IMG/VR virus record: IMGVR_UViG_3300033076_000313
Span: 1 to 62,369 of that record
Reading direction: 5' to 3' (one strand)
Length of the DNA: 62,369 nucleotides
Source: a virus
Taxonomy: Duplodnaviria > Caudoviricetes
In this document: positions 56,578 to 62,369 of the stretch, piece by piece
How the letters are laid out: every line of letters begins with the position of its first letter
How positions within the stretch are numbered: position 1 is the stretch's first letter
Made by a program: the position numbers and the translations under genes
The notes under the pieces: generated by a model
What the model saw: only the letters and a program-made list of their open reading frames with translations
Databases searched by the model: none
Told to the model about the DNA's origin: nothing

Positions 56578-57096
56578 TTACTCCTTTGATGTGATGCCGT
56601 GGGCGGCTTCGATGGCGGCGCGTGCAAACATACGCAGGTCTTCTGCATCGCACAGTTGCCCATACTCTTGTCGGTGAAGATCAGCGAGTTTGTCTAGGTC
56701 TTCATCCGTCAGCGGCTTGCGCTGTTGTTGAGTGGTGTAGAGAGGCTGCACCTTTTCTTCTCCAAGCCATTCCACAGCCTCTGCAACCAGCTTCTTATCA
56801 TCAGACAGGCTCCATTGCTTCCAAGTTTTTGATGACAACCAGCGCCAAGCCACAGGTTCCTGCTCTGGCTGTGCCACCTGCGCCTCAAGTTCAGCAATGC
56901 GCATCGCTTGGTTGTATGTCTTTTCTTGCAGGTCTTGGCATATTGCGTCTAGGTCGGGTTGCTCTGGCTGTGCCAAGGCTTCTTTGATAGCGGTGATGGC
57001 TTTACGAATAGCAGAACCAGGCAAGTTGTAACCTTCATTCTGTGTTTTTTCCAACGCCTCAAGCGCCAGCTTCAATGCTTCTGTTTTCTTATCCAT
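56578..57096 (-). CDS. mosaic array paralogue F
   Basis: MDKKTEALKLALEALE...AITAIKEALAQPEQ...AAHGITSKE. Confidence 0.75.
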   Translation of the reverse strand: MDKKTEALKLALEALEKTQNEGYNLPGSAIRKAITAIKEALAQPEQPDLDAICQDLQEKTYNQAMRIAELEAQVAQPEQEPVAWRWLSSKTWKQWSLSDDKKLVAEAVEWLGEEKVQPLYTTQQQRKPLTDEDLDKLADLHRQEYGQLCDAEDLRMFARAAIEAAHGITSKE

Positions 57097-57436
57097 TGTT
57101 CTTCTCCTTGAGTTTGGCTTCAACTTTGCGCATTGCTAGTTCAGGTACAGTTTCCCAACAGTTGGCACGTTCCTCATTCGTCAGTCCAACCCATGTGCGC
57201 TGTGGTGGGGTGGTGTTTTCTTGCGCTATAACAAGTCGCTTCTCTCCAAATCCCCAAGGCTCTTTGCGCCAATCTTTTTCCACAGGCTCCTGCTCTGGCT
57301 CTTTGGGCTGTGCCAAGGCTTCTTCGATGGCGGTGATGGCTTCACGAATAGCAGAACCAGGCAAGTTGTAACCTTCATTCTGTGTTTTTTCCAACGCCTC
57401 AAGCGCCAGCTTCAATGCTTCTGTTTTCTTATCCAT
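57089..57436 (-). CDS. mosaic array paralogue E
   Basis: MDKKTEALKLALEALE...WVGLTNEE...EAKLKEKNNG. Confidence 0.75.
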   Translation of the reverse strand: MDKKTEALKLALEALEKTQNEGYNLPGSAIREAITAIEEALAQPKEPEQEPVEKDWRKEPWGFGEKRLVIAQENTTPPQRTWVGLTNEERANCWETVPELAMRKVEAKLKEKNNG

Positions 57437-57827
57437 TGTTCTTCTCCTTGAGTTTGGCTTCGATGGCTTCAATTACTTTGCGAAAAGCTTGATTTCGGTA
57501 GACCATGTTTGTTTGTATATCCTTGACCTCCTCAGGCGTCAGTCCAACCCATGTCATGTCACTGCGTGACGGGCGCTGTGGTATTTCGTCTTGACCCCAT
57601 ATTCCACAACTTATGCAACGCATTTGACCAACTTTCATTGTGCCAGTCCTAAACCATTCATGTTTGTGTGAAACTTTTACAGGCTCCTGTTCTGGCTGTG
57701 CCAAGGCTTCTTTGATAGCGGTGATGGCGTTCTCATGCAAAAACGCTGGATAGCCTTCAAAGCCATCTTTCCAAAGTCCTTCCAACGCCTCAAGCGCCAG
57801 CTTCAGCGCCTCTGTTTTCTTATCCAT
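57429..57827 (-). CDS. mosaic array paralogue D
   Basis: MDKKTEALKLALEALE...HKHEW..CISC..WVGLTPEE...EAKLKEKNNG. Confidence 0.75.
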   Translation of the reverse strand: MDKKTEALKLALEALEGLWKDGFEGYPAFLHENAITAIKEALAQPEQEPVKVSHKHEWFRTGTMKVGQMRCISCGIWGQDEIPQRPSRSDMTWVGLTPEEVKDIQTNMVYRNQAFRKVIEAIEAKLKEKNNG

Positions 57828-58335
57828 TGTTCTTCTCCTTGAGTTTGGCTTCGGCCCATCGCACCGCCTTTCGCATCGTCTTGCTGTCGCAAGGACAGTA
57901 AGGATTGTTGACGCTGAACGTCTGGTCACGGCCCTTCTCAATCTCCTCCTCCGTCAGTCCCACCCACGGCTTGCGCTTATGTGACTCCGTCACGGGTGGG
58001 GGGGCGGTGAGCAGGCCAACAATCTGCTCTGCCAACGCTTTTCGTGCTGCGTTGTGCGTATATCGGTAGTCGTAGTTGATGTGAACGTAAACGAATTCAC
58101 CACCAAGGCGAATGTCAACGCCACCGAGAAAGTCGTAACCAACCTCAATGCCTTCTGCGACCTTTTCAAATTGCACAGGTGGCAACGCCATAGGCTCCTG
58201 CTCTGGCTGTGCCAAGGCATTTAAACCTTGTTCAATTACTTCTGTGCGCTTTTCTTGTAGCTCTGGACTGTGAAATGTTCCAACAGCCAATAGCTCAAGC
58301 GCCAGCTTCAGCGCCTCTGTTTTCTTGTCAGTCAT
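57820..58335 (-). CDS. mosaic array paralogue C
   Basis: MTDKKTEALKLALELL...ALAQPEQEP...WVGLTEEE...EAKLKEKNNG. Confidence 0.75.
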   Translation of the reverse strand: MTDKKTEALKLALELLAVGTFHSPELQEKRTEVIEQGLNALAQPEQEPMALPPVQFEKVAEGIEVGYDFLGGVDIRLGGEFVYVHINYDYRYTHNAARKALAEQIVGLLTAPPPVTESHKRKPWVGLTEEEIEKGRDQTFSVNNPYCPCDSKTMRKAVRWAEAKLKEKNNG

Positions 58336-58633
58336 CTTTTTCCCCACATTCGCAATGTTCCATCCCACAATCAATGCAAACGCTGTCATCACAGATTGGC
58401 TCCTGCGGCTGTGACGGTTGAGCCAAAGGACACTCTAGGTCAAATCCACCGCAATCATTGCAATGAGGTTGCTGTGCTGGATGCTCAGCACCCGGGGATT
58501 CCTCGGCCAGTGCTTCGCGGATGGCGGTGATGGCGTTCTCATGCAAAACCGCTGGATAGCCTTCAAAACCATCTTTCCAAAGTCCTTCCAACGCCTCAAG
58601 CGCCAGCTTCAAAGCCTCTGTTTGTTTTGTCAT
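58328..58633 (-). CDS. mosaic array paralogue B (Cys-rich tail)
   Basis: MTKQTEALKLALEALE...CNDC..CIDC..CEC. Confidence 0.75.
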   Translation of the reverse strand: MTKQTEALKLALEALEGLWKDGFEGYPAVLHENAITAIREALAEESPGAEHPAQQPHCNDCGGFDLECPLAQPSQPQEPICDDSVCIDCGMEHCECGEKDD

Positions 58634-58636
58634 GTC

Positions 58637-59218
58637 TTACTCCTTGATGCCGTGGGCGGCTTGCCATGCTTTCCAAAGGTCTGCCGTCATAGGACTGAGA
58701 ACGACCCACTCACCTGTGTCCGAATTGCACGTCTGGGCGCAGTCATACCCTTGTGCACCAGCCCACTTGATGAACTCTTTGAACTGCGGCTTGCGCTGTT
58801 GTTGGTCAGTAGATGATTGATCCATCATTACTGTTCGTGCCAATGCTTCGCATGTTGGACAGGGTTGTGGTTTCTCATACAAAGCAATCGCGCCTTCGTC
58901 TGTTTCGGCGCAATCTGTCCAGCCAAAAGGCTCAGGTTTGAAATAACCGAATGGCTCCTGCTTATGTGTCTCCGTCACGGCTGACTGTGCCACTTGAGCC
59001 TCAAGCTCCTCAATGCGCTGCGCTTGCTTCTGAATCGTCAATGTCATCTCGTTGATTGCTTCGTCGGCGTAATCTGGGTGGAACTGGTTGACTGTCTTTG
59101 GCTGTGCCAAGGCTTCTTTGATAGCGGTGATGGCTTCACGTTGAAACTCTGAATTTGTTTCCAACACATACATTTCCAACGCCTCAAGCGCCAGCTTCAA
59201 TGCTTCACGTTCTTTCAT
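58637..59218 (-). CDS. mosaic array paralogue A
   Basis: MKEREALKLALEALE...AITAIKEALAQP...AAHGIKE. Confidence 0.75.
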   Translation of the reverse strand: MKEREALKLALEALEMYVLETNSEFQREAITAIKEALAQPKTVNQFHPDYADEAINEMTLTIQKQAQRIEELEAQVAQSAVTETHKQEPFGYFKPEPFGWTDCAETDEGAIALYEKPQPCPTCEALARTVMMDQSSTDQQQRKPQFKEFIKWAGAQGYDCAQTCNSDTGEWVVLSPMTADLWKAWQAAHGIKE

Positions 59219-60076: not shown

Positions 60077-60468
60077 GCTGCCACCTTGACCATGCGCACA
60101 TCGGTGATGCCGCCAAAAATAATATCAATCTGGCTCATGCCGGAAAGGTCTTTGTCAAAGATTTCGAGCTTGAAGTTGTTTTCATCAAACCACTTGAGCC
60201 ACTGGTACAGCTGCTCTTCCGCGCGCTCTCCACGACCAAGCACAGCAACACAAGGATGCTTGTGGTACGCATCTTCTGGCGTCCACACATCGCCGTTTTT
60301 GTCGGTGCGGTTCCACTCTTTGTCGTGCCACTCATAATCTGGATACTTGCCATCGGCCAAAATGCCGACGCACTCACGGCCAAATCCGCATTCGCCCTCA
60401 AGCGTAAGCACACATTGGTTCTTGTGCGCCCACATAATCATCCAGTTGGTTTTCTCTTCACGTGTCAT
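60073..60468 (-). CDS. hypothetical protein
   Basis: GGAG RBS; LEGECGFGRECVGI..AYHKHPCVAVLG. Confidence 0.75.
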   Translation of the reverse strand: MTREEKTNWMIMWAHKNQCVLTLEGECGFGRECVGILADGKYPDYEWHDKEWNRTDKNGDVWTPEDAYHKHPCVAVLGRGERAEEQLYQWLKWFDENNFKLEIFDKDLSGMSQIDIIFGGITDVRMVKVAA

Positions 60469-60559
60469 GTTTATCTCCGGCTGGTTGGAGAACGGATGAT
60501 ACAGCAAGTTGCACATATCTACACATTAGTGCAATGAATTATTTCTATGTGCAAGGAAG

Positions 60560-61173
60560 TGTCGATAGGAAAAACAAATCGCAAAAACGAAAAGCCAAAG
60601 GTTCCCCAAGGGTGAATAGCCAAGGTATTCATCCCTGCCCATAGGGCACATACGTGGTGTCCTACTAGCAAACCCATAAGGCAGCGATTCGTCGATAGGA
60701 GGCTTGTCTTTCACCGCTCGTCCTCTTATCTTGCCCAGTCCCTCGCTGACAGGCTGGACGGCTGTTATCTGGGGGTGTGGCCAGTGCCGGTGTTTCCTTC
60801 CGCGCCACCCATGCAGGTGCAGTGCTATCGTGCGGAGTACGGCTACTGTAGAAGAGAGATGCACTTGATGATGGTGGCTGGGCTGGATACCAGCTCGGTA
60901 GAGGCAATGCCCATCTCTACCGCTTGAGGGCTTACGATCCCATTACGCATTTGTCACCTGCTGCTATCTGTGTCGGTCAAAGCGGCTGCATACCGCGCCA
61001 AACATTTCATTTTTCAGAACCAGCAAGAAGTGTGTCTATCCACACCGCACCATCATCAAGTACACAAACAAAAAAGCCGCTTACTACTGCCCTCGGTAGG
61101 AACCCTAGAGTAAAAACCAAGGGCGAGAGCATGAGTAAACGGCTTCAGTCTTTGTCGCTTCCTACGGCAACGG
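60560..61173 (-). ncRNA. candidate structured non-coding RNA region (three sub-domains)
   Basis: No credible ORF; many complementary segments including a 14-bp perfect long-range stem and loop-loop pairings; sigma70 promoter immediately upstream. Confidence 0.55.
61070..61145 (-). terminator. terminator-like closing stem with U-tract
   Basis: AAGCCGTTTACT/AGTAAGCGGCTT stem followed by TTTTGTTT on the minus strand. Confidence 0.55.
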
Positions 61174-61178
61174 TTTGG

Positions 61179-61206
61179 ATTATACACACATTTCAATGTG
61201 TTGCAA
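61179..61206 (-). promoter_or_regulatory. sigma70-type promoter
   Basis: TTGCAA-N16-TATAAT; predicted +1 near 61172, where the first hairpin begins. Confidence 0.65.
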
Positions 61207-61274
61207 CACGTTTCATACCGTACTTTTACTCACCCTATCCGGCTAGGGTGACAAAAGCGACACGGTGTCGTATT

Positions 61275-61362
61275 TGGCGGATGGTGTTGGGATCGAACCA
61301 ACGCGCCCCTTGCGGGACGACAGGTTAGCAACCTGCTGCCTTAACCTCTCGGCCAACCATCC
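61275..61362 (-). tRNA. tRNA-Ser(GCT)
   Basis: GGATGGT acceptor stem, anticodon loop TTGCTAA, long variable arm, GGTTCGATCCC, encoded CCA. Confidence 0.92.
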
Positions 61363-61363
61363 T

Positions 61364-61437
61364 TGGCATCCCGACAGGGAATCGAACCCCAGATAACGGA
61401 CTTGGAAACCGTTGTGTTACCACTACACCATCGAGAA
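61364..61437 (-). tRNA. tRNA-Trp(CCA), atypical
   Basis: D arm GTGT-AGTGGTA-ACAC, loop TTCCAAG, TTCGATT T loop, G73, CCA; several mismatches and wobbles. Confidence 0.75.
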
Positions 61438-61442
61438 ACAAC

Positions 61443-61530
61443 TGGCGGAAGAGGTGAGATTCGAACTCACGGAGCCTTTCGACTCGACAGTTTTCAAGAC
61501 TGCTGCATTAAACCGCTCTGCCACTCTTCC
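61443..61530 (-). tRNA. tRNA-Ser(TGA)
   Basis: GGAAGAG acceptor, loop CTTGAAA, long variable arm, GTTCGAATC, CCA. Confidence 0.93.
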
Positions 61531-61610
61531 AAATTTGGCCGGTGACGATTATCCGGCTCGTATGTTGATGCGCTTCCACCCCAATGGGGATGCTCGCCTA
61601 CGACGAATCT

Positions 61611-61686
61611 TGGTGCCGACTCTCAGATTCGAACTGAGGCTCTCCCGCTTACAAGGCGGGTGCAGTGACCACTTTGCTAAGTCGGC
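61611..61686 (-). tRNA. tRNA-Thr(TGT)
   Basis: GCCGACT/AGTCGGC acceptor, CCCGC-CTTGTAA-GCGGG, GTTCGAATC, ACCA. Confidence 0.9.
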
Positions 61687-62065
61687 GTTTATATTCTTTG
61701 TTGTGCGCACTTTTTGCCGCCACGCACAGTGAGCATTTGCAATACCTGTACTCGGTTAATGTTCCATGTTTTGGAACCCTGACAGCTTTGCGATGCTCAT
61801 GGTTTTTGACTTTGTTTTCATGACCAGTCAAGATTTGAAGGTTGTCCAAACTGTCGTTTGTTTTGTCTTCGTCTTTGTGATCAACCTCCTCCTCGTCCGT
61901 CAAGTACCTTCCAATCTTCACTGCCATCAAGTACCTAGCGTAACTTGTGACAGTCCTGTCTTTGTTGCTGTTGTAAAGAACAACATACTTCCTGCCGTCT
62001 TTGCTTTCCTGCAAATAACCACGGCGCCAGTCAGTAGAGTAAGGTGCGGACAATTCGTATCTCAT
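61649..62065 (-). CDS. free-standing HNH homing endonuclease
   Basis: YARYLM..EEVDHKDEDKTNDSLDNLQILT..EN (HNH_3-type) and a C-terminal HG..Y..CKC..C motif; located in the tRNA cluster. Confidence 0.85.
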   Translation of the reverse strand: MRYELSAPYSTDWRRGYLQESKDGRKYVVLYNSNKDRTVTSYARYLMAVKIGRYLTDEEEVDHKDEDKTNDSLDNLQILTGHENKVKNHEHRKAVRVPKHGTLTEYRYCKCSLCVAAKSAHNKEYKRRLSKVVTAPAL

Positions 62066-62083
62066 GCACGAATTATACACGAC

Positions 62084-62110
62084 TTGCTCTACCAACTGAG
62101 CTACAAGGGC
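62084..62110 (-). pseudogene. orphan 5' half of a tRNA
   Basis: GCCCTTG-TA-GCTC-AGTTGGTA-GAGC-A directly after the tRNA-Asn CCA; no matching CAAGGGC 3' acceptor strand downstream. Confidence 0.75.
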
Positions 62111-62185
62111 TGGCTGCCAAGGCTGGGATCGAACCAGCGACCAACAGATTAACAGTCTGCTGCACTACCGCTGTGCTACTTGGCA
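62111..62185 (-). tRNA. tRNA-Asn(GTT)
   Basis: TGCCAAG acceptor, GCAGA-CTGTTAA-TCTGT, GGTTCGATCC, GCCA. Confidence 0.93.
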
Positions 62186-62205
62186 AAAACTTTGGGGAGG
62201 GGTCT

Positions 62206-62292
62206 TGGTGGGGATGGCTGGATTCGAACCAACTCAACGTAGAAGTAACAGATTTACAGTCTGCCGTGCCTCACCAACTGCACCGCATCCCC
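62206..62292 (-). tRNA. tRNA-Tyr(GTA)
   Basis: GGGGATG acceptor, GCAGA-CTGTAAA-TCTGT, long variable arm, GGTTCGAATCC, ACCA. Confidence 0.9.
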
Positions 62293-62369
62293 GTTGCAGG
62301 GATGGATCAATATCGCCAATTACTGGACGACGTTGACGTTGATGATGAATTACTGGTCTGGGTGACAGG

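What the first reader, a model, noticed from the sequence alone, without database searches (positions are those of the whole stretch)
61070..61206. Promoter-driven ~100-nt RNA with a 7-bp loop-bulge (kissing/pseudoknot) pairing built into its terminator
Seen (minus strand): a TTGCAA-N16-TATAAT promoter. Right at the predicted +1 is a hairpin GTTGC/GCGAC with loop CGTAGGAA. Next come a 12-bp stem (AAGCCGTTTACT/AGTAAGCGGCTT) ending in a U-tract, an inner 8-bp stem (TGCTCTCG/CGAGGGCA), a CCCT/AGGG hairpin and an unpaired TTCCTAC exactly complementary to the first loop (61159-65 vs 61096-102). The G-U wobbles only work on the minus strand, which supports RNA-level selection. Inference: either a small RNA or an attenuator whose tertiary contact controls read-through into the downstream structured RNAs and the replication operon, conceptually like P1 C4 or P4 CI immunity RNAs.
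Basis: partly seen in the sequence, partly recalled or inferred. Interest (0 to 1): 0.8.

Follow-up and report, generated by a model that had tools for sequence, protein, structure and literature searches.

The report
Self-kissing terminator leader RNA in phages
Right behind a strong promoter, this freshwater phage and about 150 related phage fragments encode a small folded RNA that ends in a transcription stop signal and always keeps a pairing of seven or more letters between its first hairpin and the inside of the stop hairpin; it is a real RNA that no catalogue lists, and it most likely sets how much transcription runs on into the structured RNA and genes behind it.

Summary
On the minus strand lie a TTGCAA-N16-TATAAT promoter, a 5-bp hairpin at the predicted start, and a 23-bp composite terminator hairpin (P2-P3-P4) with a U-tract. 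A 7-nt bulge in that hairpin is exactly complementary to the loop of the first hairpin.

This is a large RNA family absent from Rfam. I collected 143 distinct members from 150 viral or MAG loci. 89 of 90 examined keep at least 7 contiguous Watson-Crick pairs between loop and bulge, using 29 different 7-letter sequences. When bulges are permuted among RNAs, a mean of 8 of 90 do so.

Six long phage records, the window among them, hold one copy each. The family is nearly absent from bacterial genomes.

No third complementary site exists nearby, so the analogy to P1 C4 or P4 CI RNA is not supported.

All members end in a U-tract. Almost all are followed after 12-20 nt, with no room for a promoter, by another structured RNA, usually a new ~200-nt "class A" RNA.

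Best reading (about 0.5): a cis-acting leader or attenuator in which the kissing contact and completion of the terminator stem compete through a 6-8-nt linker, as described for the guanidine-IV riboswitch but without a ligand. Function is untested.

The parts
61258..61270 (-). Small terminator-like hairpin closing the upstream tRNA array (context: it insulates the unit from upstream transcription)
   Evidence: CGACACCGTGTCG followed by CTTTTGTCAC. The six tRNAs lie at 61275-62292.
61179..61206 (-). Sigma-70-type promoter: TTGCAA, 16-nt spacer, TATAAT
   Evidence: 10 of 12 matches. A promoter-like site with at least 9 of 12 matches stands at the same place in 106 of 143 distinct homologues.
61154..61171 (-). 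P1, the 5'-terminal hairpin (5 bp, 8-nt loop). It starts 8 nt after the -10 hexamer, at the predicted transcript start.
   Evidence: P1 is 99% paired in the independent set, with changes on both sides in 3 of 5 pairs.
61159..61165 (-). L: loop strand GUAGGAA of the kissing (pseudoknot) helix
   Evidence: All 7 pairs show changes on both sides in A2, and 6 of 7 do in A4.
61146..61153 (-). Single-stranded linker (8 nt here; 4-9 nt in the independent alignment A4, 3-9 nt in A3, most often 6-8 nt)
61074..61145 (-). Composite terminator hairpin: P2 (12-13 bp), a 2x2 internal loop CA/GU, P3 (8 bp), and the P4 hairpin (4 bp, 13-nt loop)
   Evidence: The P2+P3 helix is 97-100% paired, with changes on both sides in 8 of 19 pairs and 14 of 20 pairs. 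The rod is 22-24 positions long in 79 of 89 RNAs.
61096..61102 (-). B: bulge strand UUCCUAC between P4 and the 3' strand of P3, the partner of L
61066..61075 (-). U-tract of the intrinsic terminator (TTTTTTGTTT)
   Evidence: All 143 distinct homologues have a T run of at least 4, and at least 6 T in 9 nt, at this place.
60853..61064 (-). 212-nt structured insert between the leader and the class A RNA, closed by a 17-bp stem. It is absent at this place in most relatives.
   Evidence: -81.9 kcal/mol, z -3.78, 0 of 200 shuffles fold as well. (found in no other locus held). tables 5 and 5c (contigs of run X15 join 60842 directly to 61067-61070).
60640..60848 (-). Class A RNA, a structured RNA of about 200 nt that the leader precedes. 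Its 3' limit in the window is approximate.
   Evidence: 23 of 26 predicted pairs keep pairing through changes on both sides. No Rfam match.

Best explanation
This is the first part of a composite leader, a 'self-kissing terminator leader'. Host RNA polymerase starts at the sigma-70 promoter. The transcript begins with hairpin P1.

About 75 nt later the 7-nt bulge B leaves the polymerase and pairs with the P1 loop (L). Only after that are the 3' strands of P3 and P2 made. These strands complete an A-tract / GC-stem / U-tract intrinsic terminator.

I infer that the L:B contact and the zipping of the base of P2 oppose each other, although they share no bases. As P2 closes, the tether between P1 and the rod shrinks from about 22 nt to 6-8 nt, and it would then have to span a two-turn, 23-bp helix.

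Transcripts in which L:B holds would read through into the class A RNA and the genes behind it. Transcripts in which the hairpin wins would stop, giving a ~105-nt RNA. On this reading the element doses or gates downstream transcription from a strong promoter.

Shown: the RNA fold, the L:B pairing, the conserved promoter and U-tract, and the constant position in front of co-oriented RNAs or genes. Inferred: that it acts in cis on termination. More weakly inferred: that the contact favours read-through rather than termination.
For: (1) The RNA and its kissing helix are real.
- In alignment A2, 90.5% of cells are paired, against 79.7% when shuffled and 35-53% when the partner is slid. The kissing helix shows changes on both sides in 7 of 7 pairs.
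- In an independent set fetched with the downstream RNA rather than with this RNA, 93.7% of cells are paired against 80.8%, and 6 of 7 kissing pairs change on both sides.
- 89 of 90 RNAs keep at least 7 Watson-Crick pairs; with bulges permuted the mean is 8.2.

(2) Terminator function is selected. All 143 of 143 distinct RNAs end in a T run of at least 4, with at least 6 T in 9 nt.

(3) Read-through is also required.
- The next conserved RNA starts 12-20 nt after the U-tract, which leaves no room for a promoter.
- 98 new loci were fetched with the class A pattern. All 92 that are true class A with enough upstream sequence carry a promoter-proximal, terminator-ended leader: 58 of this type, 31 of 'type 2' and 3 of 'type 3'. 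The other 6 are 4 likely chance matches and 2 at contig ends.

(4) In some loci the RNA stands directly before a ribosome-binding site and ORF, for example L088 before an HNH endonuclease gene and L029.

(5) The geometry is constrained. The linker is 3-9 nt, most often 6-8, and the rod is 22-24 positions long in 79 of 89 RNAs.

(6) There are precedents in print.
- A preprint reports that secondary and tertiary structures placed just upstream of terminators lower termination, depending on a short spacer (bioRxiv 10.64898/2026.06.17.733018; abstract and section 7 read).

(7) There is no target elsewhere. The loop and bulge 7-mers recur within +-3 kb at chance level, 53 hits against about 50 expected.
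Against: - No transcript ends were seen. The only RNA-library data are assembled contigs, which cannot show starts, ends or even transcription.
- The sign of the effect rests on a geometric and topological argument, not on a model or a measurement. Linker length does not correlate with rod length (Spearman -0.12, p 0.27).
- The fold is more elaborate than a plain dosing device needs, and there is one copy per genome. Both would also fit an RNA with a function of its own.
- The module stands before genes of every class (replication, recombination, major head protein, large virion-type ORFs). It is therefore not tied to one regulon and could be an autonomous cassette.
- In the window a promoter-like site (TCGACA-16-AATAAT, 60565-60538) stands before the first ORF, so that ORF may not depend on read-through.
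Confidence: 0.5

Rival explanations
1. The kissing contact helps rather than hinders termination. It pre-organises the 62-nt interior of the hairpin so that the P2 strands meet quickly. It also locks the released ~105-nt RNA into a compact fold that nucleases cannot easily attack. The element would then be a tight stop, opened only by a phage or host antitermination factor, as at lambda PR'-tR'.
For: - L:B shares no bases with the terminator.
- The terminator has textbook features (A-tract, GC-rich base, at least 6 U) in most members.
- A near-consensus host-type promoter stands in front of late genes such as the major head protein gene in L005, L012 and L013. A promoter there would need a stop that is released late.
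Against: - No antiterminator gene is shared by the loci. No protein cluster is common to the window and the other loci.
- Published data on kissing loops and on structures upstream of terminators point the other way.
Confidence: 0.17
2. The terminated ~105-nt RNA is the product that matters. It would be a stable phage RNA that binds a host or phage protein, or acts in trans. The downstream RNA would merely be co-located in a promoter-plus-terminator ('moron'-like) cassette.
For: - One copy in each of the 6 long phage records searched, the window included.
- The cassette sits at many different genomic places and is bounded by terminators.
- It has a strong promoter and a fixed rod length.
- In the window it follows a tRNA array, the place where T4 keeps stable RNAs of unknown role (the T4 point is recalled, not checked).
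Against: - Few nucleotides are both unpaired and conserved, so there is little for a partner to read. The 'invariant core' I first saw came from my own search pattern, and it covaries in the independent set.
- This reading does not explain why class A RNA never has a promoter of its own.
Confidence: 0.18
3. L and B pair between molecules, not within one. Covariation cannot tell pairing in cis from pairing in trans.
For: - The short linker (3-9 nt) makes the reach within one molecule along a 23-bp rod marginal.
- In an antiparallel dimer the base of one rod lies beside the top of the other.
- The rod length is held at about two helical turns.
Against: - Members with 13-14-bp L:B helices (L033, L047, L124) are hard to form between two closed loops.
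- No packaging or other role that needs a multimer is suggested by the varied contexts.
- Rfam's phage pRNA model does not match.
Confidence: 0.1
4. It is a put-like or EAR-like processive antitermination RNA. The folded nascent RNA would bind RNA polymerase and make it resistant to this terminator and to later ones.
For: It lies directly after a promoter at the head of long co-oriented gene strings. In the window nearly all genes from 61 kb down to 5 kb are on the same strand.
Against: - Conservation is of shape only, with no conserved unpaired nucleotides that could contact the polymerase.
- A conserved terminator inside the element itself is not a feature of HK022 put (recalled).
- Nothing here tests polymerase binding.
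Confidence: 0.04
5. It is not an RNA feature at all: a chance palindrome, a DNA-level site, or part of the 46-codon ORF at 61056-61196.
For: An ORF of 46 codons overlaps the element on the minus strand.
Against: - Compensatory changes occur in four helices.
- The fold is strand-specific. The covariance model scores 50-119 bits on the forward strand and at most 31 bits on the reverse strand.
- No reading frame is kept. 33 of 90 homologues have stops in all three frames, and the open frame differs among the rest.
Confidence: 0.01

Closest known systems
Guanidine-IV (mepA motif) riboswitch
   Same: - A 5' hairpin loop pairs with the apical part of a second hairpin, and the extended stem of that hairpin plus a U-tract is an intrinsic terminator.
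- The kissing contact and the complete terminator stem exclude each other through a short P1-P2 linker rather than through shared bases (passages of PMC11611296).
   Different: - No Rfam match.
- The partner here is a bulge, not a terminal loop.
- The contact is 7-14 Watson-Crick pairs whose letters vary (29 codes). It is not a conserved ligand pocket.
- No ligand is indicated.
- It occurs in phages, in front of other RNAs and of many kinds of genes, not in front of exporter genes.
'Tug-of-war' antitermination by structures just upstream of intrinsic terminators (Bushhouse, Fu and Lucks, bioRxiv 10.64898/2026.06.17.733018; abstract and section 7 read)
   Same: A folded element stands a few nucleotides upstream of a terminator hairpin, with no sequence overlap. 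The reported effect depends on a short spacer.
   Different: - There the upstream element is an aptamer, a pseudoknot or a hairpin that does not touch the terminator. Here it pairs with the terminator's interior.
- Nothing was measured here.
Phage P4 CI RNA and P1/P7 C4 RNA
   Same: A small phage RNA made from a leader, with short exposed sequences that pair with complementary sequences on the same transcription unit and affect downstream expression.
   Different: - Those RNAs pair with separate target sites upstream or downstream. Here both partners lie inside the one ~105-nt RNA, and no further site exists above chance.
- No match to Rfam's C4 model.
Lambda PR' - 6S RNA - tR' unit released by Q (recalled)
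   Same: A strong constitutive promoter, a short terminated transcript, and long co-oriented genes behind it.
   Different: - Q acts through DNA and a promoter-proximal pause, and the 6S RNA fold is not needed.
- Here the RNA fold is under strong selection. No Q-like gene was looked for.
Countertranscript-driven attenuation of plasmid rep genes (pT181, pIP501; recalled)
   Same: An RNA-RNA loop contact on a nascent leader decides whether a terminator forms.
   Different: In the plasmids the partner is an antisense RNA from the other strand. Here both strands of the contact are on the sense RNA.
Catalogue of 8,495 unnamed candidate structured RNAs from IMG/VR (PMC10690425; passages read)
   Same: It uses the same data source. 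1,241 of its candidates are said to contain a Rho-independent terminator.
   Different: - Candidates are listed only as DNAVirus_X in supplements that I could not open, so this family may or may not be among them.
- The passages I saw describe no loop-bulge kissing leader.

Membership tests
Any Rfam 15 family | Covariance-model match at or near the family's gathering score | tested here: not met
   - Whole window at gathering scores: only 6 tRNAs.
- 60500-61300 at E up to 10: three chance-level matches of 12-16 bits, against gathering scores of 50-90.
- 15 homologous loci: nothing on this RNA.
Intrinsic (Rho-independent) terminator | A GC-rich stem directly followed by a U-tract, on the transcribed strand | tested here: met
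   In the window, GCCG/CGGC lies at the base of P2, then TTTTTTGTTT. All 143 of 143 distinct homologues have a T run of at least 4 and at least 6 T in 9 nt. Termination itself was not measured.
Sigma-70 promoter | -35 and -10 hexamers with a 16-18-nt spacer at a fixed distance from the RNA start | tested here: met
   10 of 12 matches in the window. At least 9 of 12 at the same place in 106 of 143 homologues. Activity was not tested.
Guanidine-IV riboswitch (mepA motif) | Match to the family model, with conserved loop nucleotides that form the ligand site | tested here: not met
   No Rfam match. The pairing letters vary: 29 different 7-mers.
Guanidine-IV riboswitch (mepA motif) | A kissing contact between the 5' hairpin and a hairpin whose extension is the terminator, joined by a short linker | tested here: met
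   This is a likeness of architecture only; here the partner is a bulge.
P1/P7 C4 and P4 CI immunity RNAs | Further complementary target sites on the same transcription unit | tested here: not met
   53 exact 7-mer recurrences within +-3 kb in 89 loci against about 50 expected, at no constant position. Near-identical downstream RNAs go with different codes, for example L107 and L121.
phi29-type pRNA | Match to the Rfam phage pRNA model; loop-loop pairing between molecules | tested here: inconclusive
   No model match. Sequence cannot tell pairing in cis from pairing in trans.
Lambda-type Q / PR' late unit | A Q-family antiterminator gene upstream and a promoter-proximal pause element | not tested
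   I did not search for a Q-like protein.
HK022 put / EAR processive antitermination RNAs | The nascent RNA makes the polymerase resistant to downstream terminators | not testable with these tools
   Needs transcription assays.

The most novel reading that the evidence does not exclude
The two conformations are true rivals: the kiss without the base of P2, or the complete rod with L and B displayed. The terminated RNA would then feed back in trans. Its exposed bulge or loop would pair with the loop or bulge of nascent leaders carrying the same 5-letter 'address'. That would block their internal kiss and force termination.

This would be a copy-number or superinfection control worked by a sense RNA on its own kind. 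The many codes (29 seen) would act as specificity groups. It would work like P4 CI RNA or plasmid countertranscripts, but without any antisense gene.
Probability: 0.12. Interest if true: 0.85.

Novelty: new variant of a known kind. Interest (0 to 1): 0.66.

Why it matters
- **Size and quality of the family.** The family has unusually clean covariation for a long-range tertiary contact, and no catalogue that I could search holds it.
- **A shared design.** It heads a two-part leader whose second part, the class A RNA, is itself new. Three unrelated leader types share the same design: a 5' hairpin tied to the inside of a terminator hairpin. This points to a general phage device for setting read-through without any protein or ligand.
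- **Wider consequence if the competition is real.** The linker-mediated mechanism proposed for the guanidine-IV riboswitch would then extend to ligand-free elements. That would give a compact part, programmable through the 5-7 variable pairs, for tuning terminators.
- **A practical point.** Annotators call spurious ORFs across these RNAs. In MW202484.1, 'hypothetical protein' genes are annotated over them.

Tried and rejected
**Searches that found little or nothing**
- Megablast of 60500-61300 against 50,697 phage records: no match.
- Sensitive blastn: one record only, MW202484.1, both for this RNA and for class A.
- Rfam at permissive thresholds: nothing.
- Bacterial genomes: the exact pattern hits 4 MAG contigs. 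Model R1 matches 2 of 151 genomes sampled from the order of one of them, and one of those two is the seed.
- Earlier notes of this scan by place and by sequence: nothing.
- Literature: searches for 'Betaproteobacteria-1', for put/HK022/pseudoknot, for kissing/intrinsic terminator/bacteriophage/leader/covariation, and for freshwater/phage/structured RNA turned up no description of this RNA. The supplements of PMC10690425, which list unnamed candidates, could not be seen.

**Hypotheses tested and dropped**
- A third complementary site, as the P4 or P1 model needs: at chance level.
- A conserved reading frame: none.
- An 'invariant core' (TTACTCATGC / GCAGTAGTAAG) as a protein-binding site: rejected. 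It was imposed by my first search pattern. In the set fetched through the downstream RNA these positions covary.
- A correlation between linker and rod length as a test of an intramolecular fold: none (rho -0.12, p 0.27). My first measure of the linker was also distorted because it extended P1 into the flanks. One search gives the better figures.

**RNA-library runs**
- Contigs of two metatranscriptome runs of one study (X18, X19) and of two runs that are probably DNA (X15, X16) hold relatives of the leader and of class A at 85-99% likeness.
- They are contigs, so they show neither transcription, nor ends, nor level.
- The stretches without cover (60876-61011 and 61216-61249) carry no weight.

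**Side observation**
- Type-2 leaders show only one compensatory case for their loop-loop pairing, 1 of 23. That is too little to claim.
Full report
**What is in the window**

The window is a whole IMG/VR virus record: 62,369 bp, linear, estimated 99% complete. Six tRNA genes and an HNH endonuclease gene lie at 61275-62292 on the minus strand. A small terminator-like hairpin at 61270-61258 closes that array.

Next comes the element, read on the minus strand.
- Promoter: TTGCAA (61206-61201), a 16-nt spacer, TATAAT (61184-61179). It matches 10 of 12 consensus positions and is the best of the 3 sites scanned in 60300-62369.
- P1: GUUGC/GCGAC (61171-61167 / 61158-61154), with loop CGUAGGAA.
- Linker: 8 nt.
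- P2: AAGCCGUUUACU/AGUAAGCGGCUU.
- Internal loop: 2x2, CA/GU.
- P3: UGCUCUCG/CGAGGGCA.
- P4: CCCU/AGGG.
- Bulge: UUCCUAC (61102-61096), the exact complement of GUAGGAA (61165-61159).
- Tail: UUUUUUGUUU.

The minimum-energy fold gives these helices: -44.1 kcal/mol, z -4.65, with 1 of 200 shuffles folding as well. The other strand folds to only -31.7 kcal/mol, z -2.54.

**It is a family**

Rfam 15 has nothing for this RNA, either at gathering scores or at E up to 10. Among 50,697 phage records only MW202484.1 (an uncultured podovirus) has a relative, at 72.7% identity. In that record the loop reads GUAACGGU and the bulge ACCGUUAC, a first compensated change.

It also hit 4 MAG contigs among one genome each of 185,579 species. 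Three of these MAG contigs are labelled as betaproteobacteria.

I built a covariance model, R1, from 89 sequences. It finds one forward match in 92 of 93 sources, at 50-119 bits. The reverse strand gives only echoes of at most 31 bits.

**The loop-bulge pairing**
- In 91 distinct RNAs from the pattern scan, the longest Watson-Crick run between the 5' region and the 15 nt ending at the P3 3' strand is 7 (40 RNAs), 8 (35), 9 (9), 10 (2) or 13-14 (3).
- Two RNAs fall short. L125 is a false pattern hit that R1 does not match. L122 is a MAG contig whose loop is of one subtype and whose bulge is of another.
- With L125 dropped, 89 of 90 RNAs reach 7 pairs, using 29 different 7-mers.
- When bulges are permuted among RNAs, a mean of 8.2 and at most 19 of 90 reach 7 pairs in 1000 trials. 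Pairs of RNAs with different codes reach 7 in 1.1% of 7,448 cases.
- The first two pairs (G-C, U-A) are nearly constant and the next five vary.
- On the plain MAFFT alignment all 7 kissing pairs show changes on both sides. The middle pair is GC in 20 rows, UA in 20, AU in 13 and CG in 13.
- Nearest-neighbour energy of the isolated duplexes has a median of -9.4 kcal/mol, and is -7.7 in the window.

**An independent sample, and a correction**

My first pattern forced the blocks TTACTCATGC and GCAGTAGTAAG to be invariant.

R1 finds this leader in 58 of the 98. In them the 'core' differs and covaries (ACACAUGC/GCAGUUGU, UUAAUUCUAC/GUAGAGCUAA, and others). On that alignment:
- 93.7% of cells pair, against 80.8% when shuffled and 37-50% when slid.
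- 14 of 20 P2-P3 pairs and 6 of 7 kissing pairs change on both sides.

What is conserved is therefore the shape, with few conserved letters. No reading frame is kept: 33 of 90 RNAs have stops in all three frames.

**Constant features**

I counted these over 143 distinct forward RNAs from 150 loci.
- Every one ends in a T run of at least 4, with at least 6 T in 9 nt. 106 have a promoter-like site with at least 9 of 12 matches at the right distance.
- The linker between P1 and the closed P2 is 4-9 nt in alignment A4 (6 nt in 29 of 52 rows) and 3-9 nt in A3.
- P2 plus the internal loop plus P3 is 22-24 positions long in 79 of 89 RNAs.
- There is one copy per record in the window and in 5 of 5 other long virus records.
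- Only 2 of 151 bacterial genomes sampled from the order of one host MAG match, and one of the two is the seed.

**Context**

The unit always points the same way as what follows, but it stands in many different places:
- before a small protein that resembles the C-terminal part of replication initiators (46 loci);
- between a head-assembly gene and the major head protein gene;
- after the large terminase gene and before ORFs of 1,300-1,765 codons;
- before RecE/RecT-like or primase-helicase genes;
- after rusA;
- in the window, after the tRNAs.

No protein family is shared by all loci.

In most loci another conserved, non-coding sequence begins 12-20 nt after the U-tract. The commonest is a ~200-nt 'class A' RNA, in which 23 of 26 predicted pairs keep pairing through changes on both sides. 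Rfam has no match for it. In L039 and L044 the follower is Rfam's Betaproteobacteria-1 RNA. In L088 and L029 a ribosome-binding site and an ORF follow directly.

The converse also holds. Of the 98 loci fetched through class A, 4 are likely chance matches and 2 lie at contig ends. All 92 others have a promoter-proximal, terminator-ended leader: 58 of this type, 31 of a ~165-nt 'type 2' and 3 of a 'type 3'.

In the window a 212-nt structured insert separates the leader from class A (60853-61064; z -3.78). Contigs of relatives join the two parts directly (tables 5 and 5c).

**What it is not**

The P4 CI and P1 C4 model needs further complementary sites. The loop and bulge 7-mers recur within +-3 kb 53 times in 89 loci, against about 50 expected, and at no fixed place. 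Leaders with different codes also precede near-identical class A sequences, for example L107 and L121.

**How it most likely works**

The U-tract is universal, so termination is selected. The follower has no promoter, so read-through is needed as well. That combination defines an attenuator.

The order of synthesis is P1, linker, P2-5', P3-5', P4, B, P3-3', P2-3'. L:B can therefore form before the terminator can. Formally L:B is stem 1 of an H-type pseudoknot, and the 23-bp, two-turn rod is its stem 2.

As P2 zips towards its base, the tether between P1 and the rod shrinks from about 22 nt to 6-8 nt. The 3' strand, which is held in the polymerase, would also have to wind more than one turn around a strand that lies in a closed loop. 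I infer that the kiss and the base of P2 hinder each other.

Two papers give precedent.
- Passages on the guanidine-IV riboswitch describe just such a competition between a kissing loop and the elongating terminator stem through the P1-P2 linker (PMC11611296).
- A preprint reports that structures placed a few nucleotides upstream of terminators lower termination (abstract and section 7 read).

The direction of the effect is not shown here, and the opposite sign is a live rival.

**Other readings kept open**
- A stable RNA with a role of its own.
- A put-like antitermination RNA.

**Expression**

Contigs from two metatranscriptome runs of one study hold relatives of the leader and of class A. 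Contigs cannot show transcription or ends, so this is not used as evidence.

**Earlier notes of this scan**

A word search returned several unchecked AI notes on 'kissing-loop terminator leader' RNAs before nuclease, primase and DNA-binding genes in other, unrelated phages. One named the guanidine-IV riboswitch as the closest known system, which led me to read that literature. These notes are leads, not support. They do suggest that the design recurs widely.

**Novelty**

I found no description in Rfam or in five literature searches. A catalogue of 8,495 unnamed IMG/VR candidates exists (PMC10690425, passages read).

I file this as a new variant of a known kind: a ligand-free attenuator in which a kissing contact opposes the terminator. 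It is a real, large, uncatalogued RNA family, and its function is untested.

Noticed in passing
window 60640-60848 (-); also L009:7298-7522, L005:1996-2220 and many others: 'Class A' RNA, a structured RNA of about 200 nt.
- Conserved loops: GCAUGG, GAAACACCG, ACACCCC, GGUGG.
- 23 of 26 predicted pairs keep pairing through changes on both sides.
- No Rfam match.
- Always preceded by a terminator-ended leader.
- In many loci it ends in ...UUGGGGCUUUUUU, about 25 nt before a ribosome-binding site.
- It has the look of a sensor or protein-binding RNA and deserves a study of its own.
   Followed up: partly
window 60853-61064 (-): A 212-nt insert between the leader and class A folds into a multi-branch structure closed by a 17-bp stem (UGUACUUGAUGAUGGUG / CACCAUCAUCAAGUGCA). 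Energy -81.9 kcal/mol, z -3.78. It was found in none of the other 233 loci held.
   Followed up: partly
L127, L131-L134, L136, L141, L146, L149 and others (31 loci); L143, L150, L214: Two other leader types stand in the same place before class A.
- A ~165-nt 'type 2' starts with hairpin GUCUGA-GUGGCA-UCAGAC and ends in a long CCCCGCAG...CUGCGGGGUUUUUU hairpin.
- Its first loop (UGGC) could pair with an inner hairpin loop (GCCA). There is one compensatory case (GUGGUA with AACCAA in L146), 1 of 23.
- 'Type 3' is a third design.
   Followed up: partly
L039:5600-5717, L044:10686-10803: The Rfam family Betaproteobacteria-1 (RF02932, function unknown) lies 12-14 nt after this leader in two loci (87 and 92 bits). 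More than 1 kb without consistent ORFs follows it, before RecE/RecT-like genes.
   Followed up: partly
L122 (MAG contig) and L186: Two natural members have a mismatched loop and bulge. In L122 the loop is of the L070 type and the bulge of the L011 type. In L186 the loop is GUGAGAA and the bulge UUUCCAC. They may be recombinants or assembly chimeras. They are useful as natural 'mutants'.
   Followed up: no
L004, L005, L012, L013, L014, L090, L091 and others, about 40 nt upstream of the RNA: In many loci a terminator hairpin overlaps the promoter. Its loop holds the TTG of the -35 hexamer and its T-run forms the spacer (for example GACCCCUGCUUGACAGGGGUCUUUUUUUUGGCAUAAU). This makes a compact stop-and-restart cassette.
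   Followed up: no
window 56578-59218 (-): Five or six tandem paralogous ORFs of 100-193 codons share an N-terminal motif (M..K.EALKLALEALE...AITAIKEALAQPEQ). No PHROG match for the one tested (58640-59218).
   Followed up: no
window 61652-62095 (-): An HNH endonuclease gene (phrog_14913, E 1.9e-36) sits inside the tRNA array, between tRNA-Asn and tRNA-Thr. HNH genes (phrog_99) are also frequent near the leader in other loci (15 loci).
   Followed up: partly
MW202484.1 33533-34157 (L001:3038-3662): The GenBank record annotates 'hypothetical protein' genes across the leader and the class A RNA. These are probably spurious ORF calls over non-coding RNA.
   Followed up: partly
L099 and L123, about 150 nt after the leader: A sequence with a tRNA-like T-arm (GGUUCGAAUCC) follows the leader in place of class A. 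I did not run it through a tRNA finder.
   Followed up: no
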